From NCBI GenBank assembly GCA_028718635.1, contig JAQULK010000001.1, forward strand, positions 479,755-543,754: a stretch of DNA of 64,000 bases, given 5' to 3'. Of this stretch, positions 47,046 to 62,607 are shown one piece after another. Position 1 is the stretch's first letter, and every line of letters starts with the position of its first letter. Made by a program: the position numbers and the translations under genes. Source of the stretch: Minisyncoccota bacterium (GTDB taxonomy: Bacteria; Patescibacteriota; Minisyncoccia; Phycocordibacterales; UBA9973). Below the pieces are notes generated by a model, which saw only the letters and a program-made list of their open reading frames with translations, was not told where the DNA came from and made no database searches.

Positions 47046-47618
47046 ATGAAATTTATTTTTGATTTTGATGATGTGTTGTTTTACAATAGCGATAAGCTAA
47101 AAAAACGTATATATTTTTGTTTAGATAAAGCGGGTATTCCTTATGGTACCGCCGAAGCTTATTATAAAAAAGTTCGAGGGGGAGAATTTTCTTTAAAGGA
47201 TTTTTTATCTGAACTAGTAGATCTTGAAAATAAAAAGGATATCGAAGCAGAAGAATTACATGAAGAAATAATGAGTGAATGCCCTAATTTTATCAATACT
47301 GAATTAGTGAATCTTGTACAAAAATTCGGAAAAGAAAATTGTTATCTAGTAACTTATGGTGGATATGAACATAATAAAAATAAAGTGGAAAGAAGTGGAC
47401 TCGCTCCTTTATTTTCTGAAATTCATATAGTGTCAAAAAGTAAAAAGGAAGCTGTAGAGAAAATATGCGCCAAACATAAAGATGAAAAAGTAATATTTAT
47501 AGACGATAAAATAAAACATTTTGAAAATTTAGATTTTAAAAAATATCCCAATTTACAAACGATACTTTTTGATGACAATGGTTTTGAGAAATTTCTTTCT
47601 ATTTTACCCCCTCTGTAA
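47046..47618 (+). CDS. HAD-superfamily hydrolase (putative phosphatase)
   Basis: Motif I FIFDFDDVLF at N-terminus, motif IV-like FIDDKIKHF near C-terminus; start at ATG 47046. Confidence 0.5.
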   Translation: MKFIFDFDDVLFYNSDKLKKRIYFCLDKAGIPYGTAEAYYKKVRGGEFSLKDFLSELVDLENKKDIEAEELHEEIMSECPNFINTELVNLVQKFGKENCYLVTYGGYEHNKNKVERSGLAPLFSEIHIVSKSKKEAVEKICAKHKDEKVIFIDDKIKHFENLDFKKYPNLQTILFDDNGFEKFLSILPPL

Positions 47619-48774
47619 GCGCAGGTTCTGTGTCTGTTTGAATTATATTAAATCGCAAAACCCCGATGGTCTGGCCTTGCTTCGTCTTTACATTTACTCG
47701 CCATTTACCCTCGGCTAAATTGTAGCGCATAGAATACGTGCGGAAACCGCCATCTCGCCCGCCTACTACAGGTAAATTTATCGTACTTCCAGTTACCCAT
47801 TTCTTCTGTATTTCATCATAATATTGCCATTCGTGAACAATAGTAAGGTTTAGATTTTTAGGAGAAAAAATAGCACTAAAAGCATAGATGGGTTCCCCGG
47901 AAACCTGATTGAAATTTTGATATAAATTGAAATAACCTCTCCAACCATAATCCTCAAAAGTCACATCATAATTCCCTTCTGAATTTTTTTGTATCGAATG
48001 ATACACTCCGGCATCTTTTAAGGATAAAGGAATCGGGGGAATCAGATTCGTAAAATACAAAAAATTGATTAGAATAGAAATTCCTAAAATTAGGAATAAT
48101 AAATCACGAAACATAAACTTTTCTTCGGTACGGATTTTTTGAAGCTTAAAAAATCCTGAAGTTCTCGGCTCGTCAGCCTCGAAACCCCTTCGAAAAGTTA
48201 TGTTTCGTGATTTAAGGTTAATAAAATAAAATAAAATTAAAAGGAATACGGTAATAAAAAGTAAACTAAGAAATCCGGAAAGTAAAAATACCCAAGCACC
48301 TATTCTATGTAAAATCACCGGCACGATAAAAATGGCAAAGGAATAGATCGAAAGAAAAAATAAGCTTATTTGGAAACTAAGGCGAATATAATGACGTTTA
48401 AGTGATTCATTCGCTATAAAAGCAAGAGCAAGAAGGACAATAAAAGGCCAAGTTACAAATATATCTGCGCTTCTGAAATAAAACACCAAGTAGGTAGACA
48501 AAATTCCTCCAAAGAAAAATTGCAGTATGTTCACATACCAAAAATGCGCTTTTTGAGGATTTTTCTCAGCCCCTCTTTCGTTTTCTTGGAGGTGAATAAG
48601 GGTGATAAAGATGCCCACAATGAGCAAATGTCCTAAAACCCATAAATTCTCCCATAATGTGTCTACCCTATGAAGCGTGAGCGCATCAAAAACGAAACCT
48701 CCAACTAGGGATAAAGATGAGATAGGTCGTTCAAATCTTCCATAGAAATTGCGAATTGGATCTAGAAAAAACAT
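47599..48774 (-). CDS. polytopic membrane protein with C-terminal extracytoplasmic domain; carries in-frame copy of 112-bp repeat
   Basis: 5-6 TM helices N-terminally, then residues NLKSRNITFRRGFEADEPRTSGFFKLQKIRTEEKFMFRDLLF encoded by repeat copy 6, then a further TM and soluble domain. Confidence 0.5.
   Translation of the reverse strand: MFFLDPIRNFYGRFERPISSLSLVGGFVFDALTLHRVDTLWENLWVLGHLLIVGIFITLIHLQENERGAEKNPQKAHFWYVNILQFFFGGILSTYLVFYFRSADIFVTWPFIVLLALAFIANESLKRHYIRLSFQISLFFLSIYSFAIFIVPVILHRIGAWVFLLSGFLSLLFITVFLLILFYFINLKSRNITFRRGFEADEPRTSGFFKLQKIRTEEKFMFRDLLFLILGISILINFLYFTNLIPPIPLSLKDAGVYHSIQKNSEGNYDVTFEDYGWRGYFNLYQNFNQVSGEPIYAFSAIFSPKNLNLTIVHEWQYYDEIQKKWVTGSTINLPVVGGRDGGFRTYSMRYNLAEGKWRVNVKTKQGQTIGVLRFNIIQTDTEPALTEGVK
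48101..48213. repeat. ~112-bp palindromic repeat, copy 6 (orientation A, subtype ggctcgtcagcc), inside CDS 47599-48774 in frame
   Basis: aaatcacgaaacataaacttttcttcggtacggattttttgaagcttaaaaaatcctgaagttctcggctcgtcagcctcgaaaccccttcgaaaagttatgtttcgtgattt. Confidence 0.75.
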
Positions 48775-51356: not shown

Positions 51357-51593
51357 TTAGGTATTTTTGTTTTGAGGTTTAAGTAAAGACGTGCTTATAA
51401 CAACAACAATTGTAGTGATAATAATTGCGTAGAGAAATTTGACCAAAAGACCAGAGTTGTCTAAAGGGAAAAAGAAAGCAATAAGAGCTTTAATCGCGTC
51501 ACTCCAAGCAAGCCCAGCCACCAAGGAAAGCGCAGCTACGATATACCCCGAAGTCTGATTCCTGATTTGTGTTTTAAGTTCATCCTTTAGCAT
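51357..51593 (-). CDS. small membrane protein
   Basis: 78-aa, two TM helices; no homology recognised. Confidence 0.3.
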   Translation of the reverse strand: MLKDELKTQIRNQTSGYIVAALSLVAGLAWSDAIKALIAFFFPLDNSGLLVKFLYAIIITTIVVVISTSLLKPQNKNT

Positions 51594-51657
51594 GGAATAA
51601 TTATAGCAAACTTATCAACTAAAAACGATCTTTCGTTACAATTAAATGCAGGTGAAA

Positions 51658-52869
51658 TTAATTATTTTTTATTTTTCTTGGTTCTAATAGCAATACCAAC
51701 TCTTCTGATTTGACTCTCGACTTTTTTGTAAGCTTATTTTTATTTAACTTATTATTACCACCCAAAGTACTAAATTTTCCTGTAATTGCATGTGTATGAA
51801 TGCGACTGTTTTTTTTATCTAAATTAAAATATTTTTTAGCAGATTCAAGTACTTGGTCCCCTGATAAACCATTACTGCATTTACCTTTAGGAAAAGTAAA
51901 AATAACCTTCACTTCTCTTTTTGATAAACCTGAAAGAAGTTCATCTAATGCTTTGAGTGATTGTCCTGCATTACTAAATTTGGACTGTGGACGTTCAGAA
52001 ATATCTGGATATCTTCCAACACCAGTTACCGGCCCACATTTTCCCCGGGCAATAGTTTCAAGTACATGATAGAAACGACTATACTGTACTCCGGAGTATG
52101 GTGGGTCGAGAAGAACTAAGTCACCCTTTTTTAATTTAGATATAAGTTTTTTTGCATCAGATATCACTGCTTTTCCCTTAACTAAAGAATGAAGAGGGGT
52201 GATTTCCTCCAAAGCTTTTTCACAAGATTTAAACACATCTATGTGCCAAGCAATTTTAATAAATTTTCCAGCACCAGTTGTCGGTTGAAAAGGTTGAGCA
52301 GTATGTCCAGGAGCAGCAGCAGCTCTTGAAGCAGCAATAATTATTGCAGCCAAGCAAACATTTCTGTATTTAGTTTTTTTTGGTAACGTCTTTAGAAGAT
52401 AATCAAGAATTAATGCTTGTTTGGGGCTGAAATAGTGACCGCCATAAGCATTCCAAATTGGACCTATTTTTGGAAGGGTTTCGCAAAGTTTTCTAGCTTT
52501 ATTTACTCTAATTTTAATACTTTTCTTGTAATTTTTATCAATCTCTTCTGCCTGATTTAAAAGTTTTGAATCTTTTATTTCTTTTTTAGTCTTTTCTATC
52601 CAAATCTCTTTTAAATATTCAGGATTAAGAATATTAGTCCGCTCTATAACTGCTTTTGAAAGAACAACTGCATATTTTTGTAGATCACCTGCAATAATTT
52701 CTCCTTTAAAATTTTGATTTGTGGCAACAAAGTTAACTACGCCTCCAGAACCACAAAATGGGTCTATGAATCTTTTTGCACTGGGAAGTTGCTCTCGAAG
52801 TAATTCTCCAAGACCATTCGCCAACATATATCTTTTTGATCCCATGTATTTCATATGCCAAGTCCCCAA
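51658..52869 (-). CDS. Dam-like (D12 class) N6-adenine DNA methyltransferase
   Basis: N-terminal KYMGSKRYML (motif X), FIDPFCGSGGV (motif I, FxGxG), LVLLDPPY (motif IV, DPPY); start overlaps stop of upstream gene. Confidence 0.8.
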   Translation of the reverse strand: MGTWHMKYMGSKRYMLANGLGELLREQLPSAKRFIDPFCGSGGVVNFVATNQNFKGEIIAGDLQKYAVVLSKAVIERTNILNPEYLKEIWIEKTKKEIKDSKLLNQAEEIDKNYKKSIKIRVNKARKLCETLPKIGPIWNAYGGHYFSPKQALILDYLLKTLPKKTKYRNVCLAAIIIAASRAAAAPGHTAQPFQPTTGAGKFIKIAWHIDVFKSCEKALEEITPLHSLVKGKAVISDAKKLISKLKKGDLVLLDPPYSGVQYSRFYHVLETIARGKCGPVTGVGRYPDISERPQSKFSNAGQSLKALDELLSGLSKREVKVIFTFPKGKCSNGLSGDQVLESAKKYFNLDKKNSRIHTHAITGKFSTLGGNNKLNKNKLTKKSRVKSEELVLLLEPRKIKNN

Positions 52870-54227
52870 AGGGATATTCTTTCACACTCACTTAAACTAA
52901 ACATTTGTTGAGAAATACCCCTTATTAAATCATTATAAGAATAAGTTGTTCCCTGTGCATTCTCCCACGTTTTTATATCTTGAAGTGCTGCATCAATATC
53001 GGTCCAAAGGTCAAGAAAGTCAGCAATAGTTGTACCGTCTTTGATTAGTCCATAATCAGTTGCATATGGTTGCCACCAAAATTCTAGATCTGCTTTTGTA
53101 AAACCAGCCTCTCGAATCAGGCTTCCATTTATGCCGGTCGAAATTCTCAATAGAAGAGTGGCTCTCGCTAAAACCTGTAAATGGTGATTTGGGTGATCAG
53201 TAGAAGTAACCTTAGAAGCTTCTTCGATAATTCTCGATTCATTGGGTTGCGTCTGCCATGTAAGAAAATCTACCCAACCATTTTGTATCGGTAGGGCAAA
53301 GCCGAGAGCCGGAATATGTTTCATAACCCAAGCTCGATAATTCGCCAAGTGAGTAGGTAAACGAGGGTCTACACCATGAACAGCTCGGTATGACTGCGCC
53401 AAGCCTATTCTTAAAAGGTGTTTGTCAATCTCATCAAATCTGGATGAGGGATTTGGTTCGCACATACGCCATAATTCATTCAAAAAAGAAAGCGAGTCTG
53501 GTGCAGGAGCATTGGTTTTAGGAAGAATTCTAGATGGTCTATAACTAGAATGGTTTCGTAGTATTTGGTCATCACCAAATTGTTTTATATCTATTCCCCA
53601 AGATTTTAACCAAGAACGACCAATAGGATGGAGATTTACATTGAAGGCACCTAACCAAACAGAAAGAGCTATTGACCCAGGCGTAATAATTTCGGAAAGT
53701 GTTTCTGCAGATGGTTTTCTATCAGCCCAATGCTCAAGAGCTTCCCATGTAAATTTATGTGTTCCCTTTTGACTAGATGTCGTGACCGACCTTCTTGTTG
53801 TATTTGTTACAATTACATGTGTTCTATTAAATACCCCAACCCCGATGGATCCAAGAATGGACATTGCAGCACGCAACTCAGCATAGTAAGCAAGATGAAC
53901 AGAGCTACTTGAATCTCCTTTTATATGAAGATTGAGTGCTCTACCCAGTAGACTCCAACCATCACTACAGTGATTAAAAATTGAGGCAGCTATATAATTT
54001 TCAATCTGCCTCTGATATAAGGATCTTCCTCGAGCAATTACCTCTGTAGGATTTCCTCTATTTGCTGGATTTCTTTGGTAAGATTTGGAATATCTATTTT
54101 GTGGATTAATCCATCGCCTAACAGAGATGTGAGAACGAAGATTTTTTACCCCCTCCTTAATCGCATCAGGAGAAGCATTTCTTAACTGTTTTTTTAGTGA
54201 GTTTGCTGGCATGAATTTTTTTATCAA
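52851..54227 (-). CDS. 458-aa protein of unknown function, middle gene of DGQHR-MTase operon
   Basis: No recognisable motif by eye; overlaps both neighbours by 4-19 bp (translational coupling). Confidence 0.5.
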   Translation of the reverse strand: MIKKFMPANSLKKQLRNASPDAIKEGVKNLRSHISVRRWINPQNRYSKSYQRNPANRGNPTEVIARGRSLYQRQIENYIAASIFNHCSDGWSLLGRALNLHIKGDSSSSVHLAYYAELRAAMSILGSIGVGVFNRTHVIVTNTTRRSVTTSSQKGTHKFTWEALEHWADRKPSAETLSEIITPGSIALSVWLGAFNVNLHPIGRSWLKSWGIDIKQFGDDQILRNHSSYRPSRILPKTNAPAPDSLSFLNELWRMCEPNPSSRFDEIDKHLLRIGLAQSYRAVHGVDPRLPTHLANYRAWVMKHIPALGFALPIQNGWVDFLTWQTQPNESRIIEEASKVTSTDHPNHHLQVLARATLLLRISTGINGSLIREAGFTKADLEFWWQPYATDYGLIKDGTTIADFLDLWTDIDAALQDIKTWENAQGTTYSYNDLIRGISQQMFSLSECERISLWGLGI

Positions 54228-55750
54228 ACAACATCTCCATCAAATCCGAGGTTTTTATAAATTGCTTTAGCATCTTTTCCTAATTTATTATCTTTAGATA
54301 AATGTTTAAGTAGCAAGCGTCTAAATTCTCTGTAACCACTACCACCTCTAAATGAAAGTTTGAGCGTTCTCTCTATTTCAGAGAGATTTTCAGCAGCCGA
54401 TGATCTCCAATCAAATGTTGAAAGTGCAATTGTAAGCTGGTCTATAAACACAGTAATCTGTTGTTGTTTCTTTAATAAATTATCAAGAGCTTCTGATACA
54501 GTCACTTCTGGATTCAGTTTCCATTTCTTCAAATTTAATTTATCCGTATTTCTGAATAGTATATCGTTGGTAATATTTAAAACGACAGAAATGCCTTGAT
54601 CATTATTCAGGAGTGTATGTGGTCCATAAAAAGCAGGATCTTTCTTGATCTTCCGCTTATAGTCAGTTTCTCTTAGTTTTTTTGCCCAATCAACTTTAAG
54701 TTCTTTAATAGATTTTTCTAGTGAGTTCCAAAGGTAAATTAAGAGAGCCGCTTGCTGGCTGCGATTCCAAGGAATCGTCATTTCATCATGCCCTGCTGGT
54801 GCTCCAAATAAACCCCCAATTGTTACTCCCTTACCTTCTGATGTTTTAATATATGTTTTTAATAAAGCTCTTATCCAAGCGGCTTGGGTAACAGAACTAT
54901 CTCCACTTTCACCAAGCATATTTATACGCTGATACCAAGAACTTGTTGGCTCAGACCAAAGTAATTCAACTATTTCTTGTGCTCTCGCTTCTCGGTATAC
55001 TTTGTGGCCCTCGAATCGATCTAACCAATCCTCAGTACGCAAAAGAGGATAAAGATCAAAAGCAAGACTTGGATTGATCCTCTTTGGCTTAATGTTTATT
55101 GTCCAGAATAAATAAGCCTGCCAGCTTAGATCTAAACCATAAAAAGCAACTACCGGTAACTCGTAATCCTCGTTAATATTTTCATCAAAGGCCAATAATC
55201 TATGTTGGCCATCAATTACTTCCAATGGATGAACTTGTTCTGGTTTCCATTTTTTTGTTTCTTTAGAAAAAGGAAGTTTTATTTCAGTGATGACAGCATT
55301 CTGGTCTATTGTTATTAAATCCTTAAATGCTACGAACCCCCCATTTCGTTTATCTTCTTTTGTTAAAATATTCACAACAATTGCTGTAGGTAGCCACCCT
55401 GGTTTACGAAGATCATCAAACCTACCATCTTGTCGTTGAGATTTTGTTAAATCTGACCATGGGTAACCATACTTAACATACTCCGCAATATTTTTTGAAC
55501 GAGATTGTTCGTAGGCACGTTGGATCCCCATGTCGCCAGACCTTTTTTTGCCATCTTTTGCATCTCTGCGATTTACACCAGACAAAAAACGCAGCTGGCG
55601 AGCAGACAATGAAAATATATAGAAACACTTTTCTGGTTCTCTTCGATGATTCTTTTTAATAAACTCAACTGATCCCCATTCTTTTAACCATTGATTTACC
55701 TTTAAGGCATTAATGGTTACATTTTTATTTGACTTAGATTTATTTTTCAT
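54224..55750 (-). CDS. DGQHR-domain protein (DndB-like, ParB/Srx-fold superfamily)
   Basis: Contains VIDGQHRLLAF (DGQHR signature) and upstream GIQRAYEQ box, typical of TIGR03187/DndB-like family. Confidence 0.65.
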   Translation of the reverse strand: MKNKSKSNKNVTINALKVNQWLKEWGSVEFIKKNHRREPEKCFYIFSLSARQLRFLSGVNRRDAKDGKKRSGDMGIQRAYEQSRSKNIAEYVKYGYPWSDLTKSQRQDGRFDDLRKPGWLPTAIVVNILTKEDKRNGGFVAFKDLITIDQNAVITEIKLPFSKETKKWKPEQVHPLEVIDGQHRLLAFDENINEDYELPVVAFYGLDLSWQAYLFWTINIKPKRINPSLAFDLYPLLRTEDWLDRFEGHKVYREARAQEIVELLWSEPTSSWYQRINMLGESGDSSVTQAAWIRALLKTYIKTSEGKGVTIGGLFGAPAGHDEMTIPWNRSQQAALLIYLWNSLEKSIKELKVDWAKKLRETDYKRKIKKDPAFYGPHTLLNNDQGISVVLNITNDILFRNTDKLNLKKWKLNPEVTVSEALDNLLKKQQQITVFIDQLTIALSTFDWRSSAAENLSEIERTLKLSFRGGSGYREFRRLLLKHLSKDNKLGKDAKAIYKNLGFDGDVV

Positions 55751-56156
55751 ATTTAAAATAATGCTTAAATTAGTACTTACTATTGTACCAAATTAGGATC
55801 CACAAAGCACGCAATTTAAGGTATGAAATAGTTAGTAATCCACCTTTATATATTTATCTTTTGACGCCGTTAACGCTAAAATAGTTTTTGCCCACGGGCT
55901 CACAAAATCAGAATCCAAGGATTCGATAAGTGAGTTCGTTTTGCGTTTAAGAGCAAAATATTTTAGATGATTATTAATTAATTTTGTTTAAAAAAACATA
56001 TGAATAAAATAAAAAGTTTGGTTTGGCACACAGAGAAGCGTATCGTATCTCAGTAGGTATGCTATGACGAATAGTTCTTGAGTAAGTTTCAACGCATCTC
56101 GTGCGGGATAACTGCGCTCAAACTGGCTGGGTGTCTGGTGCGAAGTTGGAACATTT

Positions 56157-56864
56157 TTAACGTTTGAATAAAGTTTTAATATTCTTTTCAAGATAGTATA
56201 TCCAAGAAAATAAAGTACAATCCAAGAAAATACCTGTAATTGTTAGGCATGTAATCCCAAAAAATACATATGGTAAATAACCATATTCTGTGGCACTGTT
56301 ATAAGCCCATTTTCCACTAACAACTATAAAGATTATGAGTGCAAGTACATTTAGAAGAGCGTCAGAGTGAATATTCTTACTTGTACTTTCTACTGCTTCC
56401 TCTTCCCATTCATGACTATAAGTACCATTACTCTCACTTTTTGTAATACTAGTTTTAAAGTAATCCTTATTTATAGGAAGAAAGTCGTAATGCCATTTAC
56501 GTCTGCTTTTATAGCCATGATTATCGTATTTCCATATCACCCTATCCATGAGTATGCTTAAAGGAGCAATTAATATAATTAATCCACATATCATATAAAG
56601 CCACCTGTATTCTGGAAGAAACGGTAAATAACTATTTAAACCATCAAGGCCATGGAGCAAAACTACGAGCAGAGAAAGAGTAAGAAATGTGCGATTCACT
56701 TTTGATGCATGTTCTTGAGGTTTAAAGTATATGTAACGACCAAGGGCTTTGTATACGACATACATTAAAACATAAACTATTGCCACATGAAATATCGTTA
56801 ATTCGTGAAGTAAAAGATTTTTTAGTTCATCAAAAGAAGATAGAAATAAAGATTCATTTAACAT
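56157..56864 (-). CDS. hypothetical polytopic membrane protein
   Basis: 235 aa, ~5 hydrophobic helices. Confidence 0.4.
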   Translation of the reverse strand: MLNESLFLSSFDELKNLLLHELTIFHVAIVYVLMYVVYKALGRYIYFKPQEHASKVNRTFLTLSLLVVLLHGLDGLNSYLPFLPEYRWLYMICGLIILIAPLSILMDRVIWKYDNHGYKSRRKWHYDFLPINKDYFKTSITKSESNGTYSHEWEEEAVESTSKNIHSDALLNVLALIIFIVVSGKWAYNSATEYGYLPYVFFGITCLTITGIFLDCTLFSWIYYLEKNIKTLFKR

Positions 56865-56882
56865 AATATTTTTAAGTTAAGA

Positions 56883-57599
56883 TTATTTTTTCTTACTACC
56901 AAATACTATATATAAAAAGATTTTATAGTAGAAAATAATAATCCCTGCAAAGAGCAAAAAGGAAAATACCAAAACGACAGGAATCATTTCTAGAAAGTAC
57001 ATTATAGTTTTACCAACAGATTTTTCATAAAAGAACCAGTTATCTTGGTACGATTTATCGGGTTGCAAAAAAGTAACCTTTGTATTATTAAAAGATGTGT
57101 AAGCATCAACAATTAAACATTTTATATCATTTTGTTTTATGTAATTTGAAAATGCTTCCGATGAGATTTTATTTCTGTAATTATTCTCCATTATAAATAA
57201 TTCATACAATATATCCGTATTTTTATTATCCTTAATTTTTTCATAATTATTGGCAAGTTCAGTAGAACAATAAACGTTATTTAAAGTACCCATATAATAA
57301 TCGTCTGGAGGACTATTTAATACATAAGTTCTATTACTGTCTCCTATCTTTTCCCCCATCTTAATAAGTGCACTTATTGGTTTAATCTCAGAAGTTATTC
57401 TTTCAGATATAGTTGCAACTTTTTTCCATTCTTGAACTCCAATATCACCCTTAAACAGATTAGAATTACTATAAACTATTAAATTATAAATAAAAAATAG
57501 AATAAAGGAAAAAATAAAAATAATTGATAGAAGTCTATGCCACCATTTATTTTTAAGATTCAAATCTTCTCTAGATAACCAATTTAATATTTTTTTCAT
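56883..57599 (-). CDS. hypothetical membrane-anchored protein
   Basis: 238 aa, N-terminal and C-terminal hydrophobic helices flanking soluble domain. Confidence 0.4.
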   Translation of the reverse strand: MKKILNWLSREDLNLKNKWWHRLLSIIFIFSFILFFIYNLIVYSNSNLFKGDIGVQEWKKVATISERITSEIKPISALIKMGEKIGDSNRTYVLNSPPDDYYMGTLNNVYCSTELANNYEKIKDNKNTDILYELFIMENNYRNKISSEAFSNYIKQNDIKCLIVDAYTSFNNTKVTFLQPDKSYQDNWFFYEKSVGKTIMYFLEMIPVVLVFSFLLFAGIIIFYYKIFLYIVFGSKKK

Positions 57600-57602
57600 A
57601 AA

Positions 57603-57977
57603 TTATTTTTTTAATACTCTTTTAAAAATCTCAGGGTCTCTTTTTGCTGAACTTAAAATAACATCAAAATTAAAACGACCATACCCAAATGTTTCCTCTT
57701 CATAATCTTCATCCTCTTTGTCTTTTTCTTGGTCAAAATAATTAACAAAGTCTAATATGGCATTTATTAAAGTACCCATTATCATAATCGGTTTTTCAAG
57801 TTTCTTTGCATTATCAGAACCAGAAGTTTCATCACTTTTAATAAAAACAGCCATCATGTCTGCTTTCTGATAAATCTGTTTCCATAAGTACTCAACAATA
57901 GTTTTCCAATGGAAGGTATTACGATTAACCCACCAAATAATAACCCCTACGACAACTATTATTAGTAAATATCCCAT
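57603..57977 (-). CDS. hypothetical protein with N-terminal TM and acidic tail
   Basis: 124 aa; EDEDYEEE acidic stretch. Confidence 0.35.
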   Translation of the reverse strand: MGYLLIIVVVGVIIWWVNRNTFHWKTIVEYLWKQIYQKADMMAVFIKSDETSGSDNAKKLEKPIMIMGTLINAILDFVNYFDQEKDKEDEDYEEETFGYGRFNFDVILSSAKRDPEIFKRVLKK

Positions 57978-58552
57978 ATGATTTTAATCATACAACTCTC
58001 GCTAAAAAAATCAATGGTTGTTTGACATTCCTTTTTTAAAGGCATATACTAATAGCGAGTACGGAACTGCACCTTGATTTATAAAGCACGCAAAAAATAA
58101 AAAAATAACAACACTCTCGCCTAAAAAAATTAAACCCTTTGTGGCTAGCATAAAATATATAAAAAATTAAAACACAGCTAGAAATATAAAATAAAAAAAA
58201 ATAAAGAGAGCCTAAATAATAAAAAAAATTAATTAGTGCCAAACAAAACAGGAACCAAAATTTGGGTTCTTTTTTCGTTTATTTCAAGCTGTTTTTCTGT
58301 ACCCGAAAAAAGGGTATGGAATTAAAATATAGCCAAATTCTAATAACTCGTACTATAAACCACTTTAAGAAAAAGTATGGTTTAGACATTTCTGCCGAAA
58401 CAGCAGATGTCTATTTGGCTTCGTTCGCGGTGGTGTTCCGTTCGTTCGTCCGCCCGTCCTCTGTGGACGGCGGACGAACGGATACACCCGATGATTATTA
58501 ACACTCGTTCTGCGGGTGGTAGTAACACCCGCAGAACATTGCAGATTGCAAT
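57978..58552. other. AT-rich non-coding region with direct repeats (ctcgc(c)taaaaaaat) and two GC-rich hairpins (58438-58483, 58509-58537): candidate replication origin / regulatory region of the integrated element
   Basis: 575 bp without credible ORF; poly-A tracts; hairpins ccgttcgttcgtccgcc...ggcggacgaacgg and ttctgcgggtg gtagtaa cacccgcagaa immediately upstream of Rep-like gene. Confidence 0.3.
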
Positions 58553-59608
58553 ATGATAGACACGATTAAATTTTTAATACCAATTGATAACAGTGAGGTT
58601 TTTGAGAGTATTAAAAATCAGCTTACTCGTACTCGTAGAGAAAATATGAAAACGAATGAATTAAAATTTGAATATTTTACAGAAGAAATTGAAGTAGGAA
58701 GTTATGAACGAACTGTAAGAATTTATCTGAAACAAGATAGCCCGAAAGGTGTATTCGTAGAATTTTCTTTGCCTAAACAATATTATGATAATAATGTAGA
58801 AATGATACACGCTTATGATATTGAATATGTTTTAGATAATTTTAAAAATGATGTTTGCCAATTTTTCCAAGAACGTATTCCTCCAATAGAACAATGGATT
58901 ATTTATCGTCTTGATGTTTGCTATAACTGGACTTTTGAATCAGAACAAAAATGCCAGTCCATTATGAATTTTATTCAGCGTATAGATTTCCCTAAAAAGA
59001 AAAAATATGTCTATGATACTTCTGTAATGTATAAAGGGTCTGCCTATACAATTAAATTCTATTTAAAGGGTGCAGAATTTAAGAGGCATGACTATAAAGA
59101 CATTTTTAAAAAAGATATGGATAAAGCTGATTTACTTCTTAATTGGGCAGAAAAAGTTTTACGATTTGAGGTTGAATTTAAGAAAGGATATTTAAGTAAT
59201 TTATTTCCTCATGGAAAAGTTTTAGTTTCTAGTATTGTTTACGATAAAATTATTGAGGACATATTAAAAAAATATCTTACTTTGGTTTTTCGCTACGTTA
59301 ATAAAGAAAATATGAAATATGAAAATGTTAGGCAGTTAATAGATAAAAGTTTCAAGCCAGCTAAAGCATTACGCTTGTATCAATTTTATAAGGGCTACTT
59401 TTACGAGCAAGATGAAAAGTTTCATATTAAAAAAGGACTTAACCCGTCTACGATTTGGCGATATAAAAACGATTTAAAAAATATTGGTGTTTCATTTGAG
59501 GAAAATTTAGGTGATTCCAGTTTCGTAGCGGTTGAGGAATTGATTGTACCCTCTGGAAAAGGAAAGTTTGATTTGCTTGATTATAAGCTAACTAGTGATT
59601 ATAGTTAA
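58553..59608 (+). CDS. putative rolling-circle replication initiator (Rep_trans-like)
   Basis: Blocks RLDVCYNW, YVYDTSVMYKGSAYTIKFYLKGAE, VLRFEVEFKKGYL resemble Rep_trans (PF02486) motifs including the catalytic Y-x-K region; sits next to serine recombinase. Confidence 0.4.
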   Translation: MIDTIKFLIPIDNSEVFESIKNQLTRTRRENMKTNELKFEYFTEEIEVGSYERTVRIYLKQDSPKGVFVEFSLPKQYYDNNVEMIHAYDIEYVLDNFKNDVCQFFQERIPPIEQWIIYRLDVCYNWTFESEQKCQSIMNFIQRIDFPKKKKYVYDTSVMYKGSAYTIKFYLKGAEFKRHDYKDIFKKDMDKADLLLNWAEKVLRFEVEFKKGYLSNLFPHGKVLVSSIVYDKIIEDILKKYLTLVFRYVNKENMKYENVRQLIDKSFKPAKALRLYQFYKGYFYEQDEKFHIKKGLNPSTIWRYKNDLKNIGVSFEENLGDSSFVAVEELIVPSGKGKFDLLDYKLTSDYS

Positions 59609-59612
59609 ATTT

Positions 59613-61079
59613 ATGAAATACGTTATCTATTGCAGAAAATCAACCGATACCGAGGACAGACAAGTCCAATCCCTAGAATCCCAAGAAAACGAGCTTAAAA
59701 GGCTCGCAGAGGCTCAAGGACTGCATGTTGTTGCTATCTTACATGAAAGTATGTCCGCCAAGTCAGAGGGTCGCCCTGTATTCAATAAAGTGTTAGAAAT
59801 GTTTATTAAAGGAAAAGTTGACGGTATTATTTGTTGGAAACTAGACCGCCTAGCTAGAAACTTTATTGACGGTGGACGAATTATTGATTTACTGCAAAAA
59901 TCTGTTATCAAAGAAATTCGCACTCCTGAAAGTATTTATTTACCCAATGATAATGTGTTAATGATTTCTATGCAGTTTGGAATGGCTAACCAATACAGCC
60001 GTGATTTGAGTATGAATGTTAAGCGTGGTCTTCGTACTAAACTTGAAAAGGGCGAATGGTTAAATAAGGCACCACTCGGATACTTGAATGATAAAATTGC
60101 ACACAAAATTATTATTGACCCAGTACGCAGTAAATATATTATCCGTGCTTTTGAACTTTTTACGACTGGAAAATACGGACACAAAGATATTTCTAATATT
60201 CTTTTTTCCGAGGGATTTAGAAGTAGTGGTAATTTACAAGTGCCAAAGTCGGCAATCCAAACGATTCTTTTAAATCCTTTTTATTGTGGTTTAATGAAAA
60301 CAGGCGGAAAAATTTATAACGGAAACCATACACCCATTATTTCTAAAGCTATTTATGATAAAGCCCAAGAGGTAATGCAAGAACGCCTACACCCAAGAAA
60401 GAAAACTTTACTATTTCCTGTTAGAGGTTTGATTAAATGTAGCGAGTGCGGTTGTATGTATACCGCTAGTAGAAAAAAAGGTCATGATTATTACTACTGC
60501 ACTAATGGCAAAGGCATTTGTACTTCTGATAAAAAATATTTGAGAGAAAATGATTTGTATAAAAAATTACTTCCTATTCTTGAAAAAGTTGCGTGGGATA
60601 AAGAAGAAATTGAGTTGTTATACCTTGCATCAAAAGAGGACATTAAATACGAAACTGGATACTTAAATAAAACTCTAGAAAATCTTAAACAAGAGGCAGT
60701 CGTTATTTTAGAACGCCAAGGCAAACTTCTTAATTTATATTTAGATGGCTCTATGTCTAAAGAATTATACGAGGAAAAAAATATCGCTATTGAAAATCAA
60801 AGAGTGTTATTAGCCAAGCAAATTTCTGAAATTGAGGACAAAACCCAAAAGGCAGTTTCTGCTTTGGAACCGACTAAAAAATTGTTTTTAGATTGTGTTG
60901 TATGGGCGAAAGAGTTTTTAACACTTCCACCAGAGAAAAAACAAAATATTGTCCACGAGATACTTTGGAACCTTAACATGAAAGAGAAAAATATCGTTGA
61001 TTACCAACTTAAAAGTCCGTATTCTGCTATCGCAAATTTACCTCAAAATGCTAATTTCCACGCAAGGCTGGGAGACTAG
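59613..61079 (+). CDS. large serine recombinase (integrase)
   Basis: Resolvase N-domain YCRKSTD...SLESQ...DRLARN, recombinase domain, zinc ribbon CSECGCMYTA...YYYCTNGKGIC, C-terminal coiled coil; last 4 codons overlap tRNA-Gln 3' end. Confidence 0.85.
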   Translation: MKYVIYCRKSTDTEDRQVQSLESQENELKRLAEAQGLHVVAILHESMSAKSEGRPVFNKVLEMFIKGKVDGIICWKLDRLARNFIDGGRIIDLLQKSVIKEIRTPESIYLPNDNVLMISMQFGMANQYSRDLSMNVKRGLRTKLEKGEWLNKAPLGYLNDKIAHKIIIDPVRSKYIIRAFELFTTGKYGHKDISNILFSEGFRSSGNLQVPKSAIQTILLNPFYCGLMKTGGKIYNGNHTPIISKAIYDKAQEVMQERLHPRKKTLLFPVRGLIKCSECGCMYTASRKKGHDYYYCTNGKGICTSDKKYLRENDLYKKLLPILEKVAWDKEEIELLYLASKEDIKYETGYLNKTLENLKQEAVVILERQGKLLNLYLDGSMSKELYEEKNIAIENQRVLLAKQISEIEDKTQKAVSALEPTKKLFLDCVVWAKEFLTLPPEKKQNIVHEILWNLNMKEKNIVDYQLKSPYSAIANLPQNANFHARLGD

Positions 61080-61138
61080 GAATCGGACCTAGATTAAAGG
61101 CTTCAAAGGCCTCTGTCCTACCGTTAGACGATCTCCCA
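61068..61138 (-). tRNA. tRNA-Gln (anticodon UUG)
   Basis: Hand-folded: acceptor TGGGAGA/TCTCCCA, D stem GTCT/GGAC, anticodon stem GAGGC/GCCTT loop CTTTGAA, T arm CTAGG TCCGATT CCTAG. Confidence 0.6.
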
Positions 61139-61236
61139 ATATTTTTTAAACAACTTAGTTTATAACATAAATAATGAAAAAAATCTATATTATAGATATA
61201 AAATTAGGTTAAAATTTGACATATCACCACAACCTA

Positions 61237-61272
61237 AAAACCACTTACAAAAGTAAGTGGTTTTTAGGTTTA
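61237..61272. terminator. bidirectional terminator (aaaaccacttac aaaag gtaagtggtttt)
   Basis: 12-bp perfect stem flanked by A- and T-runs. Confidence 0.55.
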
Positions 61273-61285
61273 AAAAACAAAATTC

Positions 61286-61444
61286 TTACATCATCTTATC
61301 CTTTTTCATCAAACCCCAAATTACGCCGATGACTCCAAGCACTATCAAAACCCACATCCAAGTTGAAGAGAAGCTCATCATTAAACCGATGATACCTACT
61401 ACAGCTAAAATAATACCGACTACTAACAATGTTGTTTTGTTCAT
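61286..61444 (-). CDS. 52-aa hydrophobic hairpin membrane protein
   Basis: Hand-translated MNKTTLLVVGIILAVVGIIGLMMSFSSTWMWVLIVLGVIGVIWGLMKKDKMM; followed by terminator. Confidence 0.3.
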   Translation of the reverse strand: MNKTTLLVVGIILAVVGIIGLMMSFSSTWMWVLIVLGVIGVIWGLMKKDKMM

Positions 61445-61572
61445 AATTCTTTTTTAAATAGCTACTTATAATCGACCTTTATCTTCTTTAATTTTATTAT
61501 GCACGAAAAAAATAATCAAACTAATTTTCCACATTTAATCAAAACACAAAATGATTTCAGCTTTTTCGAATT

Positions 61573-62607
61573 CTATTTTTGAATTATCTCCACTAATGCA
61601 AGCTCAAGGGGTAATTCGGAGACAAAGGCATTATCAATATTTTTATATGCTTCAAGCAACACAGCCAATGTAGAAGAATTAAATGCCTCTTTACCCACAC
61701 CTCTAATTAAATCTTTAAGAAATTCTAAATCTGTTTCTCCCAAATCCCCTATCATTTCTTTTTCTAATTTTGGCGCATAGCGCAGGATTATAGCCATGCG
61801 GAATTTCTGAATTATGAGTTTGAAATATAATTTCATATCTAAATTCGCTTCTCCGGCAATGCGCACAGCAGAGACTCCTTTCTCTAGATCCTTTTCCGCA
61901 ATGGCAAAAATAAAATCATTAACCAGAGTCGTCTTCGGCGCACCAGTTATCTTTTCCACATCTTCCCTTTTAATTTTTTTACTCTTGCTAAAATTGAGAA
62001 TCTTTTGCAATTCCCCTAAACCATCCCGAAACGATCCATCGGCTAAAATAGCCAAAAGTTCTGCTGAACCAGCATCTAATTCAAACCCCTCCAACTTCGC
62101 GACGTCCAGCAATAATTTTTTACATACCACGTCAGAAGCTTTTTTGAAAGTGAAAACCTGGCAACGAGAAATAATTGTCTCGGGAACCTTATGAAGTTCA
62201 GTCGTAGCCAAAATAAAAATAACATGTTTCGGAGGCTCTTCTAAGGTTTTTAATAGCGCACCCCAAGCATCCTTGGAAAGCATATGCACCTCATCTATAA
62301 TGTAAACTTTGTATTTCGAATCAAAAGGTAAAACTCGCACACCGTTACGAAGCTCTTTTATGTCTTCAATTCCTCTATTGGAAGCAGCATCGATTTCGTA
62401 AAGATCATTGGCGGACACTCCTATGCTCGTCGCAAAGATTCTAGCGAGAGAGGTCTTGCCAGTACCGCGTGAACCGACAAAAAGATACGCATGCGAAACT
62501 TTATTTGTCTCTACAGAACTTTCTAGTATTTTGACAATATGGTCTTGTCCTAAAACCTCTTTAAAAGTTTTGGGTCGGTATTTGCGATACAAGGCTAAAT
62601 CATGCAT
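61573..62607 (-). CDS. dnaX: DNA polymerase III subunit gamma/tau (short form)
   Basis: YRPKTFKEVLGQDHI, Walker A GSRGTGKTS, sensor motifs; 344 aa. Confidence 0.85.
   Translation of the reverse strand: MHDLALYRKYRPKTFKEVLGQDHIVKILESSVETNKVSHAYLFVGSRGTGKTSLARIFATSIGVSANDLYEIDAASNRGIEDIKELRNGVRVLPFDSKYKVYIIDEVHMLSKDAWGALLKTLEEPPKHVIFILATTELHKVPETIISRCQVFTFKKASDVVCKKLLLDVAKLEGFELDAGSAELLAILADGSFRDGLGELQKILNFSKSKKIKREDVEKITGAPKTTLVNDFIFAIAEKDLEKGVSAVRIAGEANLDMKLYFKLIIQKFRMAIILRYAPKLEKEMIGDLGETDLEFLKDLIRGVGKEAFNSSTLAVLLEAYKNIDNAFVSELPLELALVEIIQK

What the first reader, a model, noticed from the sequence alone, without database searches (positions are those of the whole stretch)
51357..61138. Probable integrated mobile element ending at tRNA-Gln: Rep_trans-like initiator, large serine recombinase overlapping the tRNA 3' end, AT-rich ori-like region
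The large serine recombinase gene (59613-61079) ends four codons inside the 3' acceptor stem of a minus-strand tRNA-Gln(UUG), the classic signature of an element integrated at a tRNA. Immediately upstream is a 351-aa protein with Rep_trans-like blocks (RLDVCYNW; YVYD…YKG; VLRFEVEFKKG). Before that is a 575-bp AT-rich non-coding stretch with direct repeats (ctcgc(c)taaaaaaat, ~118 bp apart) and two GC-rich hairpins, plausibly a double-strand origin or nick site. The cargo to the left includes three membrane proteins and the DGQHR-unknown-MTase operon. The left boundary is undetermined. Candidates are ~51.35 kb or ~55.75-56.16 kb, where a 400-bp non-coding stretch with a GC-richer core sits.
Basis: partly seen in the sequence, partly recalled or inferred. 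Interest (0 to 1): 0.65.

Follow-up and report, generated by a model that had tools for sequence, protein, structure and literature searches.

The report
Small integrating rolling-circle plasmid at tRNA-Gln
A 4.9-kb mobile DNA circle that copies itself by rolling-circle replication is inserted at the very end of a tRNA-Gln gene in a Patescibacteria (CPR) genome, and it belongs to a widespread, apparently undescribed family whose serine integrase gene runs across its own attachment site.

Summary
It spans window 56125-61072 (4,941 bp). The DGQHR/458-aa/methylase operon (51658-55750) and the DUF5654 gene lie outside it.

Left to right it holds:
- attL: a 7-nt copy of the tRNA 3' end, then a family-wide motif TGGnnCGnnGTTGGAAC 10 nt from the tRNA-end position
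- three unrelated membrane-protein cargo genes on the minus strand
- a conserved 61-aa gene
- two strong hairpins
- a large serine recombinase (LSR) whose last four codons, stop included, come from tRNA-Gln(UUG)

Wherever related metagenomic loci extend far enough, they keep the small-gene/Rep/LSR module. There it abuts convergent tRNAs of five kinds (Gln-UUG, Gln-CUG, Ser, Ala, Val), with elements of 4.9-6.8 kb.

Rejoining the two ends keeps the LSR reading frame open into a conserved tail, (A/G)VWx(E/D)VGT. LSR homologs with that tail sit on tRNA-free circular contigs of 4.2-6.5 kb.

Cargo in relatives is often anti-phage defence. No virion or conjugation genes were found.

Verdict: an integrative rolling-circle plasmid-like element, a new variant of known kinds. 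Excision, nicking and transfer are inferred, not shown.

The parts
56125..56152 (+). attL. It holds the 7-nt core GGCTGGG (56125-56131), identical to the reverse complement of the tRNA-Gln 3' end. It also holds the conserved element-side arm TGGTGCGAAGTTGGAAC (56136-56152). In the circular form, 56127-56171 would encode the integrase tail LGVWCEVGTFLTFE*.
   Evidence: L082 joins a recombinase C-terminus directly to this arm. The motif is found at the left end of related elements, always 10 nt after the tRNA-end position. The tail is in frame.
56157..56864 (-). Cargo gene, 235 aa, about 4 predicted membrane helices, function unknown.
   Evidence: ORF list. Hydrophobicity scan. No Pfam, PHROG, PADLOC or NCBIfam family. 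No homolog in related elements.
56883..57599 (-). Cargo gene, 238 aa, N- and C-terminal membrane helices, function unknown.
57603..57977 (-). Cargo gene, 124 aa, N-terminal membrane helix, function unknown.
57978..58315 (.). Element-specific divergent intergenic region. It holds the two direct repeats (57996-58011, 58114-58130) flanking a near-consensus promoter-like site (58022-58050, + strand, 11/12), and a terminator-like hairpin at 58250-58271. Apart from its last ~50 bp (the closest relatives match from 58264), it is not conserved in related elements.
   Evidence: DNA homology to relatives starts only at 58264/58327.
58316..58501 (+). Conserved small gene, 61 aa, predicted two-helix hairpin with a variable tail. 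Function unknown; it is a candidate regulator or directionality factor.
   Evidence: A homolog lies immediately upstream of Rep in the related loci that extend far enough upstream of Rep. There are 11 database homologs. Residues 1-45 are conserved. Predicted structure has pLDDT 79. No family or fold match.
58432..58488 (+). Long GC-rich hairpin overlapping the variable 3' end of the small gene. Candidate single-strand origin or Rep-binding element.
   Evidence: DNA fold -24 kcal/mol, z -7.15. A long GC-rich hairpin of different sequence is predicted at or near this position in most related loci.
58507..58537 (+). Candidate double-strand origin (nick) hairpin GTTCTGCGGGTG-GTAGTAA-CACCCGCAGAAC, followed by the palindrome ATTGCAGATTGCAAT (58538-58552) abutting the Rep start codon.
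   Evidence: Across 16 loci the loop nTAGTAA (TCGTAA in two loci) and the GGTG/CACC stem top are invariant or nearly so. Six of 12 stem pairs show compensatory changes. 87.5% of cells pair, against 48% or less in shifted registers. z -7.7.
58553..59608 (+). Rolling-circle replication initiator, 351 aa. Pfam family Phage_CRI (gene II/X family) with a Rep_trans-type fold. Predicted catalytic Tyr170 in the motif YLKGAE.
59613..61079 (+). Large serine recombinase (integrase), 488 aa in the integrated state. Its last 4 codons, stop included, are tRNA sequence. Predicted 499 aa in the circular state.
   Evidence: PF00239, PF07508, PF13408. phrog_95 integrase E 2e-81. It follows Rep in every locus that extends far enough. 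Tail reconstruction.
61040..61090 (+). attR. The element-side arm lies inside the integrase 3' end, the core GGCTGGG is at 61066-61072, and the host arm is the tRNA acceptor/T-arm.
61066..61138 (-). Host tRNA-Gln(UUG), intact. This is the integration target.
   Evidence: The dnaX-tRNA-Gln pairing is conserved in relatives lacking the element.

Best explanation
Window 56125-61072 is an integrated copy (4,941 bp) of a small plasmid-like mobile element of Patescibacteria.

Integration. Its large serine recombinase inserted a circular form into the last few bases of the host tRNA-Gln(UUG) gene. The crossover falls within the last 4 nt of the tRNA gene. The element supplies identical bases there, so the tRNA stays intact.

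The integrase gene runs across the element's own attachment site. In the circle the protein ends ...HARLG-VWCEVGTFLTFE. After integration this conserved tail is left at the far end (attL), and the gene instead ends in tRNA-encoded ...LGD.

Replication. After excision (attL x attR) the circle is proposed to replicate by the rolling-circle route. The Rep protein (Phage_CRI family, Rep_trans fold, catalytic Tyr170) would nick in the conserved loop nTAGTAA of the hairpin 15 nt upstream of its own start codon. The neighbouring long GC-rich hairpin is a candidate lagging-strand origin.

Other genes. A conserved 61-aa two-helix protein upstream of Rep is an unassigned regulator or directionality-factor candidate. 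The three minus-strand membrane proteins are exchangeable cargo.

Shown here: anatomy, boundaries, family conservation, and the existence of free circles in the same integrase family.

Inferred: excision of this copy, the nick site, a role for the tail, and the route of cell-to-cell transfer. No transfer genes are present.
For: Host versus element. The order dus-dnaX-tRNA-Gln is conserved in relatives that lack Rep and the recombinase. The Rep-recombinase-tRNA arrangement recurs in other flanks.

Family. The recombinase follows Rep in every locus that extends far enough. It abuts a convergent tRNA: Gln-UUG, Gln-CUG, Ser-UGA, Ala-UGC or Val-CAC.

Left end.
- DNA homology to relatives covers only 58264-61141.
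- L082 joins a recombinase C-terminus to a sequence identical to window 56136-56152.
- The motif TGGnnCGnnGTTGGAAC lies left of the cargo in 7 further loci, 10 nt after a 4-10 nt copy of the cognate tRNA end.
- L108 is a complete 4.95-kb element bounded by an 8-nt core.

Tail.
- The rejoined ends are in frame in window, L092, L098 and L102.
- They are also in frame in L108 by hand reading of the junction sequences. The script run used a mis-set junction for L108.
- The join is directly observed in L082.
- The tail encodes (A/G/L)(V)Wx(E/D/A)VGT.

Free circles.
- 6 of the 120 closest recombinase homologs carry the tail.
- Their contigs have k-1 terminal repeats (L110, L114) or are 100%-identical circular permutations from separate samples (L112/L113, L114/L115).
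- None of these contigs carries a tRNA.
- 60 of the 120 homologs end in peptides read from a tRNA T-arm backwards.

Replication module.
- Pfam and PHROG hits and invariant Rep_trans-type motifs (PMC5714925, PMC4797284).
- Covarying hairpin with an invariant loop.

Cargo. It is variable and often defence-related in relatives: restriction-modification, Shedu, CBASS-like and DUF2726 genes.
Against: - No read-level or contig-level evidence shows that this particular copy excises. No empty attB from the same species was available; the closest relatives share only 76-78% DnaX identity.
- The circular contigs found carry a different Rep family (PF23343). For the Phage_CRI subgroup, the only attP-type junction is the partial contig L082.
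- The L082 recombinase C-terminal fragment is much more divergent from the window's than its N-terminal fragment is. L082 may therefore be a tandem of two elements rather than a monomer circle.
- The conserved tail motif could be conserved as a DNA-binding site rather than as protein.
- The exact crossover dinucleotide is not determined.
- The nick site is assigned by analogy only.
- No transfer mechanism is encoded.
Confidence: 0.8

Rival explanations
1. It is a filamentous (inovirus- or plectrovirus-like) prophage. The gene II-type Rep replicates a single-stranded genome, and the small membrane proteins are coat or assembly proteins, as in the Ralstonia phage phiRSM, which also integrates into a tRNA with a serine recombinase.
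For: - The Rep belongs to the filamentous-phage gene II family (PF05144, phrog_702).
- The nearest phage-database hits are replication proteins of small 7-8 kb viruses, Dulem virus 52 and 57, at 25-27% identity.
- The three cargo proteins are small membrane proteins.
- phiRSM is a precedent for a serine recombinase using a tRNA site (PMC3218068, PMC7192596).
Against: - No Zot/pI-type morphogenesis ATPase or any virion-protein family was found in the window element or in the cargo proteins of related loci that were scanned.
- The membrane-protein genes are not conserved between elements. Elsewhere they are replaced by restriction-modification, Shedu or CBASS-like genes.
- The cargo is transcribed opposite to Rep.
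- IMG/VR holds only one distant (25%) Rep relative, and the attP pattern is absent there.
- The best plasmid hit is a 3.5-kb cryptic plasmid.
Confidence: 0.06
2. The mobile unit is the larger block 51357-61072, as first proposed. It would be one island carrying the DGQHR/unknown/methylase operon as well as the membrane proteins.
For: - The DGQHR-MTase operon looks like a defence or modification system. Such systems often travel on islands next to tRNAs.
- Relatives' elements do carry defence cargo.
- None of the genes between the tRNA and purL is found at this locus in the nearest relative L002.
Against: - The element-side arm and the tRNA core copy are at 56125-56152. No second copy of the arm exists anywhere in the 64-kb window, even allowing 4 mismatches.
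- The in-frame integrase tail is at 56127-56171.
- Delimited relatives are 4.9-6.8 kb.
- The operon's upstream region would lie in the 375-bp host-side gap.
Confidence: 0.05
3. The element is of the kind described but is now a fixed, inactive resident. Integration removed the integrase tail and the copy can no longer excise.
For: - The integrated integrase lacks the conserved tail.
- No recognisable directionality factor is present.
- No circular form of this exact element was found.
- L085 shows that decay happens. There the recombinase frame runs on into the tRNA and no recombinase gene was called, although tblastn still aligns nearly full-length at 81% identity.
Against: - The small gene, Rep and the recombinase are intact and full length.
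- Both hairpins and both att arms are intact. The arm is 17/17 identical to L082.
- Most family members are found in this same integrated, tail-less state, yet the family has spread to at least five tRNA targets and also occurs as free circles.
Confidence: 0.12

Closest known systems
Dehalococcoides ssrA-specific genomic islands (integrase DsiB; McMurdie et al. 2011, PMC3146451)
   Same: - A large serine recombinase integrates an island at the 3' end of a tRNA-like gene.
- The 3' end of the integrase gene always overlaps the att site and reads into the RNA gene.
- The authors likewise suggested the integrase might be fully functional only on the circle.
- No transfer genes are encoded.
   Different: - The target there is tmRNA, with a 20-bp direct repeat and a crossover in the T-loop. 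Here the shared core is 4-10 nt at the extreme 3' end of ordinary tRNAs.
- Those islands have a six-gene integration module with a second small recombinase and no replication initiator.
- Those islands are much larger.
- No conserved in-frame tail beyond attP was reported.
Actinomycete integrative elements of the pSAM2 type (AICEs; Ghinet et al. 2011, PMC3218068)
   Same: - They are integrative elements that also replicate by rolling circle after excision.
- They usually sit at tRNA 3' ends.
- A Mycobacterium subgroup uses a serine recombinase at tRNA-Leu.
   Different: - AICEs carry an FtsK-like conjugation gene, usually a tyrosine integrase plus Xis, and RepSA/RepAM-type initiators. They are about 9-24 kb.
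- This element has no transfer gene, a Phage_CRI Rep, and is 4.9 kb.
Ralstonia filamentous phage phiRSM1/3 (Askora et al. 2011, cited in PMC3218068 and PMC7192596)
   Same: It combines a gene II-family rolling-circle Rep with a serine recombinase, and integrates at the 3' end of a tRNA (Ser).
   Different: - phiRSM uses a small resolvase-type recombinase without the Recombinase and zinc-ribbon domains.
- It encodes a full set of inovirus coat and assembly genes.
- Neither of these applies here.
Rep_trans plasmids (pT181 RepC/RepD; structures 4cwc, 4cij; Carr et al. 2016, PMC4797284) and small cryptic Phage_CRI plasmids (for example Rivularia PCC 7116, 3.5 kb, NC_019686)
   Same: - The origin hairpin lies next to rep.
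- The replicons are small.
   Different: - Those plasmids are purely extrachromosomal and have no integrase.
- Sequence identity is 28% or less.
- The Pfam Rep_trans model itself does not match.

Membership tests
Large serine recombinases (serine integrases) | N-terminal resolvase catalytic domain with the nucleophilic serine | tested here: met
   PF00239 E 1.4e-23 over residues 10-155. The sequence YCRKSTD lies near the N-terminus.
Large serine recombinases (serine integrases) | C-terminal Recombinase domain plus zinc-ribbon domain | tested here: met
   PF07508 E 2.4e-11 and PF13408 E 2e-6, both above their cutoffs. phrog_95 integrase E 2e-81.
Large serine recombinases (serine integrases) | Short att sites with only a few shared bases, and no long flanking direct repeats | tested here: met
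   No long repeat of the tRNA end exists. attL and attR share a 7-nt core, and 4-10 nt in relatives.
Large serine recombinases (serine integrases) | Catalyses attP x attB recombination; excision needs a directionality factor | not testable with these tools
   This needs biochemistry or read data. No directionality factor was recognised.
Phage_CRI / gene II-X rolling-circle initiators | Match to the family profile | tested here: met
   PF05144 43.8 bits against a cutoff of 21.7. TIGR01629 scores 26 bits, just below its cutoff of 29.
Rep_trans initiators (PF02486) | Match to the Rep_trans profile | tested here: not met
   No PF02486 hit at E <= 0.1. No PDB sequence hit with a 35-sequence profile.
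Rep_trans initiators (PF02486) | Motifs RxD, T/SxY/ExG, YxKxxE and W/LxRxE on a crescent-shaped beta-sheet fold | tested here: met
   - R119-L-D121, S157..Y160-K-G162, Y170-L-K172-G-A-E175 and L-R204-F-E206 are present. Most of these residues (D121, S157, G162, Y170, K172, E175, R204, E206) are invariant in 35 homologs and R119 is nearly so (motif definitions from PMC5714925).
- Foldseek missed this match.
Inoviridae / Plectroviridae prophage | Zot/pI-like morphogenesis ATPase and conserved coat proteins | tested here: not met
   No such family was found in the window element or in the cargo proteins of related loci that were scanned. The cargo is not conserved.
AICE (pSAM2-type integrative conjugative element) | FtsK/SpoIIIE-like transfer protein together with integration and replication modules | tested here: not met
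   Integration and replication modules are present. No transfer protein was found in the 4.9 kb.
Classical tRNA-targeting island (tyrosine integrase type) | Tyrosine integrase and a displaced tRNA 3' fragment of about 15-50 nt as a direct repeat | tested here: not met
   The integrase is of the serine type. Only 7 nt are repeated.

The most novel reading that the evidence does not exclude
Splitting the integrase gene at attP may act as a built-in directionality switch. Only the circular form would make the full-length enzyme with the conserved (A/G)VWx(E/D)VGT tail and be competent to integrate. The integrated copy makes a tail-less enzyme with different activity, either excision-prone or silent, which would partly replace a separate directionality factor.

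Alongside this, the family would be a naturally retargetable set of large serine recombinases. They read the extreme 3' end of tRNA genes and have switched among at least five tRNA species while keeping one half-site constant.
Probability: 0.2. Interest if true: 0.75.

Novelty: new variant of a known kind. Interest (0 to 1): 0.55.

Why it matters
Patescibacteria (CPR) make up a large share of bacterial diversity. Almost no plasmids, integrating elements or genetic tools have been characterised for them.

This family supplies three things:
- a compact native replicon, with a Rep and a defined origin hairpin;
- a site-specific integrase with predictable attP and attB sites at tRNA genes;
- a view of how defence genes (restriction-modification, Shedu, CBASS-like) move between these tiny genomes.

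It is also a large natural series of serine integrases that target tRNA 3' ends. The literature read here calls that rare or unproven for this enzyme class (PMC7192596, PMC3218068). The series has one conserved and one variable half-site, which is useful for understanding and engineering integrase specificity.

Tried and rejected
- Long attL repeat. A search for a long direct repeat of the tRNA 3' end found nothing. The boundary came instead from comparison with related elements.
- Remnant integrase left of attL. A test for a decayed integrase remnant (tandem array) at 55751-56124 gave no detectable similarity apart from the tail itself.
- RNA families. An Rfam scan of 55600-61600 found only the tRNA and sub-threshold noise.
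- Viral collections. IMG/VR searches with Rep alone, with a Rep alignment and with the attP pattern gave one distant relative and no attP.
- Small protein. Pfam, NCBIfam and a fold search of the 61-aa protein were uninformative, because a two-helix hairpin is too generic.
- Exact-sequence look-ups. DnaX is not on record. Rep gave only one further contig of the same sequence, and that contig ends inside the tRNA.
- Structure count. My first structure string for the hairpin was mis-registered by two columns. It was corrected.
- att half-site symmetry. A symmetric TTCCA...TGGAA reading of attP would put the crossover where the native tRNA would be mispaired, so I rejected it.
Full report
**1. What is in the window**

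ARAGORN and Rfam both find an intact tRNA-Gln(UUG) on the minus strand at 61066-61138. Three genes converge on it from the left.

- A 61-aa ORF lies at 58316-58501.
- A 351-aa ORF lies at 58553-59608.
- A 488-aa ORF runs from 59613 to 61079. Its last codons, CTG GGA GAC TAG, are the reverse complement of the tRNA acceptor end.
- The 488-aa protein has the three domains of a large serine recombinase: Resolvase, Recombinase and Zn_ribbon_recom. It matches phrog_95 'integrase' at E 2e-81.
- The 351-aa protein matches Pfam Phage_CRI (PF05144, E 3e-11), phrog_702 and, just below cutoff, TIGR01629 rep_II_X. It does not match the Rep_trans model.
- To the left lie three minus-strand genes for membrane proteins of 124, 238 and 235 aa with no family assignment.
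- Then comes a gap of about 375 bp, then a DGQHR(DndB-like)/458-aa/Dam-like methylase operon at 51658-55750, then a DUF5654 gene.
- The exact Rep protein is on record under a source name, 'Candidatus Pacebacteria bacterium', on a 672-kb contig.

**2. The tRNA belongs to the host and the module does not**

The gene order (83 aa)-dus-dnaX-tRNA-Gln is kept in Paceibacteria-type relatives. These are L002 and L009 (DnaX 76-78% identical) and L003-L008 (51-56% identical).

In most of them tRNA-Gln follows dnaX directly. None has Rep or the recombinase nearby.

Conversely, Rep followed 4 nt later by the recombinase, with its 3' end abutting a convergent tRNA-Gln, is found next to unrelated host genes in L087 and L085.

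The acceptor-stem 3' strand covaries with the host 5' strand. For example, L085 has TGGGATA paired with TATCCCA. Conserved element sequence starts immediately after the tRNA end, so the tRNA body is host DNA.

**3. It is a family**

Rep has at least 175 homologs of about 350 aa. All of the best 120 listed carry PF05144, and where sources name them the names are Patescibacteria-type.

In every related locus with enough sequence downstream, the recombinase follows Rep, down to 43% Rep identity.

Wherever the contig continues, a convergent tRNA follows:
- Gln-UUG in the window, L085, L087 and L096
- Gln-CUG in L102 and L109
- Ser-UGA in L092
- Ala-UGC in L098
- Val-CAC in L105

**4. The left boundary**

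No long repeat of the tRNA end exists in the window. That is expected for a serine recombinase.

DNA similarity to related elements covers only 58264/58327 to 61141.

One contig, L082, gave the key. A recombinase C-terminus there (...NLHARLG) runs straight into TTTGGTGCGAAGTTGGAAC. This sequence is identical over 17 nt to window 56136-56152, just downstream of the 3' end of the 235-aa cargo gene.

The motif TGGnnCGnnGTTGGAAC also lies left of the cargo in L092, L094, L098, L102, L105 (twice) and L108.

In each integrated locus it is preceded by a 4-10 nt copy of the cognate tRNA's terminal bases. The motif always starts 10 nt after the position equivalent to the tRNA end.

| Locus | tRNA target | Shared core |
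|---|---|---|
| window | Gln-UUG | GGCTGGG |
| L105 | Val-CAC | GTGGGCGGT(A) |
| L098 | Ala-UGC | CTGTGG |
| L092 | Ser-UGA | TGCGG |
| L102 | Gln-CUG | GCTG |
| L108 | not identified | TGTGCACC |

The only bases shared in all cases are the last four of the tRNA gene, so the crossover must lie there.

In the window the cores are at 56125-56131 and 61066-61072, which gives an element of 4,941 bp. Delimited relatives measure 4.9-6.8 kb. The DGQHR operon is therefore outside. No second copy of the arm exists anywhere in the window.

**5. The integrase gene spans attP**

Joining the right end to the left end keeps the recombinase frame open. This holds in window, L092, L098 and L102, and in L108 by hand reading of the junction sequences. 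It is seen directly in L082.

The joined frames give tails such as:
- HARLG-VWCEVGTFLTFE* (window)
- AVWYAVGTFIIAGE*
- LWVEVGTILFR...
- AVWDDVGTALT...
- LWDAVGTALLLEL*

Integration replaces this tail with whatever the tRNA encodes backwards. I cannot separate conservation of the tail as protein from conservation as the recombinase's DNA half-site.

**6. Free circles exist in this integrase family**

I examined the 120 closest recombinase homologs, all at least 48% identical.
- 60 end in peptides such as ...DSNPN or ...DLDSNQD..SYH. These are a tRNA T-arm read backwards.
- Many others stop within a few codons of the tRNA end, as the window copy does.
- 6 carry the AVWx(D/E/N)(V/I)GT tail.

The contigs of four of those six were fetched.
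- L110 (4,218 bp) and L114 (6,551 bp) have exact 30-nt terminal repeats, the signature of a circle in a k=31 assembly.
- L115 and L113 come from other samples. They are 100%-identical circular permutations of L114 and L112 respectively.
- None of these contigs carries a tRNA.

These circles carry a different small rolling-circle Rep (PF23343), an HTH protein and cargo.

So circular episomes with the integrase ORF running across attP are directly observed for the family. For the Phage_CRI subgroup only the partial L082 junction is available. L082's C-terminal recombinase fragment is much more divergent than its N-terminal one, so it could instead be a tandem of two elements.

**7. The replication module**

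Rep_trans initiators are defined by four motifs: RxD, T/SxY/ExG, YxKxxE (with the catalytic Tyr) and W/LxRxE. The same motifs are reported for the Phage_CRI family (PMC5714925, PMC4797284).

The window Rep has R119-L-D121, S157..Y160-K-G162, Y170-L-K172-G-A-E175 and L-R204-F-E206. Most of these residues are invariant in 35 homologs, and R119 is nearly so.

The hairpin GTTCTGCGGGTG-GTAGTAA-CACCCGCAGAAC at 58507-58537 ends 15 nt before the Rep ATG.
- In 16 loci the loop nTAGTAA (TCGTAA in two loci) and the top of the stem are invariant or nearly so.
- Six of 12 stem pairs change on both sides.
- 87.5% of cells pair, against 48% or less in shifted registers.
- The DNA fold has z -7.7.

A short palindrome, ATTGCAnnnTTGCAAT, abuts the start codon.

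A second, long GC-rich hairpin (58432-58488, z -7.15) is predicted at or near this position in most related loci, with different sequence in each. It overlaps the variable tail of the 61-aa gene.

The 61-aa protein has a conserved core (residues 1-45) predicted to form two helices. It has no family or fold match.

They lie in DNA that is not conserved between elements.

**8. Cargo, and plasmid versus virus**

The three membrane proteins have no homologs in the other elements. Relatives carry the following instead:
- a C5-methylase plus an HNH nuclease (L094)
- an Eco57I-like methylase plus DUF3800 (L098)
- Shedu SduA plus methylases (L107)
- a CD-NTase (CBASS-like) plus DUF2726 (L114/L115)
- DUF2726 (L092)
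- secreted proteins (L105)
- a 575-aa protein (L082)

The nearest annotated relatives of Rep are a 3.5-kb cyanobacterial plasmid (28% identity, E 3e-19) and two small 'Dulem' viruses (25-27% identity).

I therefore read the element as plasmid-like, not as a prophage.

**9. Comparison with what is known**

Serine-recombinase integration into t(m)RNA genes is described as rare or unproven.
- Mageeney et al. found 14 of 297 serine integrases (4.9%) at such sites, against 44.5% for tyrosine integrases. [quoted passage not shown]
- Ghinet et al. call it rare. They cite phiRSM1 (tRNA-Ser) and a group of Mycobacterium elements at tRNA-Leu (PMC3218068).
- The Dehalococcoides ssrA islands are the closest integration-module precedent. 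Their large serine recombinase gene always overlaps the att site and reads into ssrA (PMC3146451).
- Integrative elements that also replicate by rolling circle are known, namely the AICEs.

Seven full-text searches found no description of this Patescibacteria family. That covers only the library searched.

**10. Verdict**

The element interpretation is right in kind but wrong in extent.

The element is an integrative rolling-circle plasmid-like element with a tRNA-end-specific large serine recombinase. It is a new variant of known kinds and a member of a large family.

Excision of this copy, the nick site, any function of the tail and the means of transfer remain inferences.

Noticed in passing
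window 51658-55750 (minus strand): A three-gene operon lies immediately outside attL. It encodes a DGQHR/DndB-DpdB-like protein (508 aa), a 458-aa protein with no family, and a D12/Dam-like adenine methylase (403 aa). It looks like a DNA-modification or defence system of an unassigned type.
   Followed up: partly
L002 11066-11137; L085 4262-9490: The surroundings of tRNA-Gln are rearranged between relatives. In L002 the tRNA is inverted relative to dnaX. In L085 the DUF2914 gene, 65% identical to window 47599-48774, lies on the 5' side of the tRNA, whereas in the window it lies on the 3' side.
   Followed up: no
window 39851-41617 (minus strand); L082 229-1956: A 588-aa protein with no family sits between purL and purQ in the host. 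It has a full-length homolog at 41% identity as the only cargo gene of the closely related element in L082-L084.
   Followed up: partly
L105 3032-3058 and 4616-4642: Two copies of the tRNA-Val core plus the element-side arm lie 1.6 kb apart, left of one Rep/recombinase module. This suggests a remnant of an earlier element, that is, tandem accretion at the same tRNA.
   Followed up: no
L114/L115 (6.5-kb circle); L107; L094: Very small circular or integrative elements of this family carry complete-looking defence systems. These are a CD-NTase (CBASS-like) with DUF2726, Shedu SduA with methylases, and a C5-methylase with an HNH nuclease.
   Followed up: partly
L001 end (= window 61116); L088 end; L108 both ends: Several independent assemblies break inside or within about 30 nt of the tRNA/att core. 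This would fit mixed integrated, empty or circular forms in those samples, but a repeated tRNA sequence could also cause it.
   Followed up: no
window 61139-61572: The gap between tRNA-Gln and dnaX is about 430 bp, against about 10-130 bp in the relatives where the tRNA directly follows dnaX. It holds a palindromic terminator-like hairpin (about 61204-61273) and a 52-aa hydrophobic ORF (61286-61444, minus strand).
   Followed up: no
L085 514-1437, L092 1743-2666, L087 2811-3659, L096 130-975, L105 6827-7678, L095 159-836: A protein of about 280-307 aa with no family is encoded upstream of the small gene, on the same strand, in many family members. It is absent from the window element and from L082.
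   Followed up: partly
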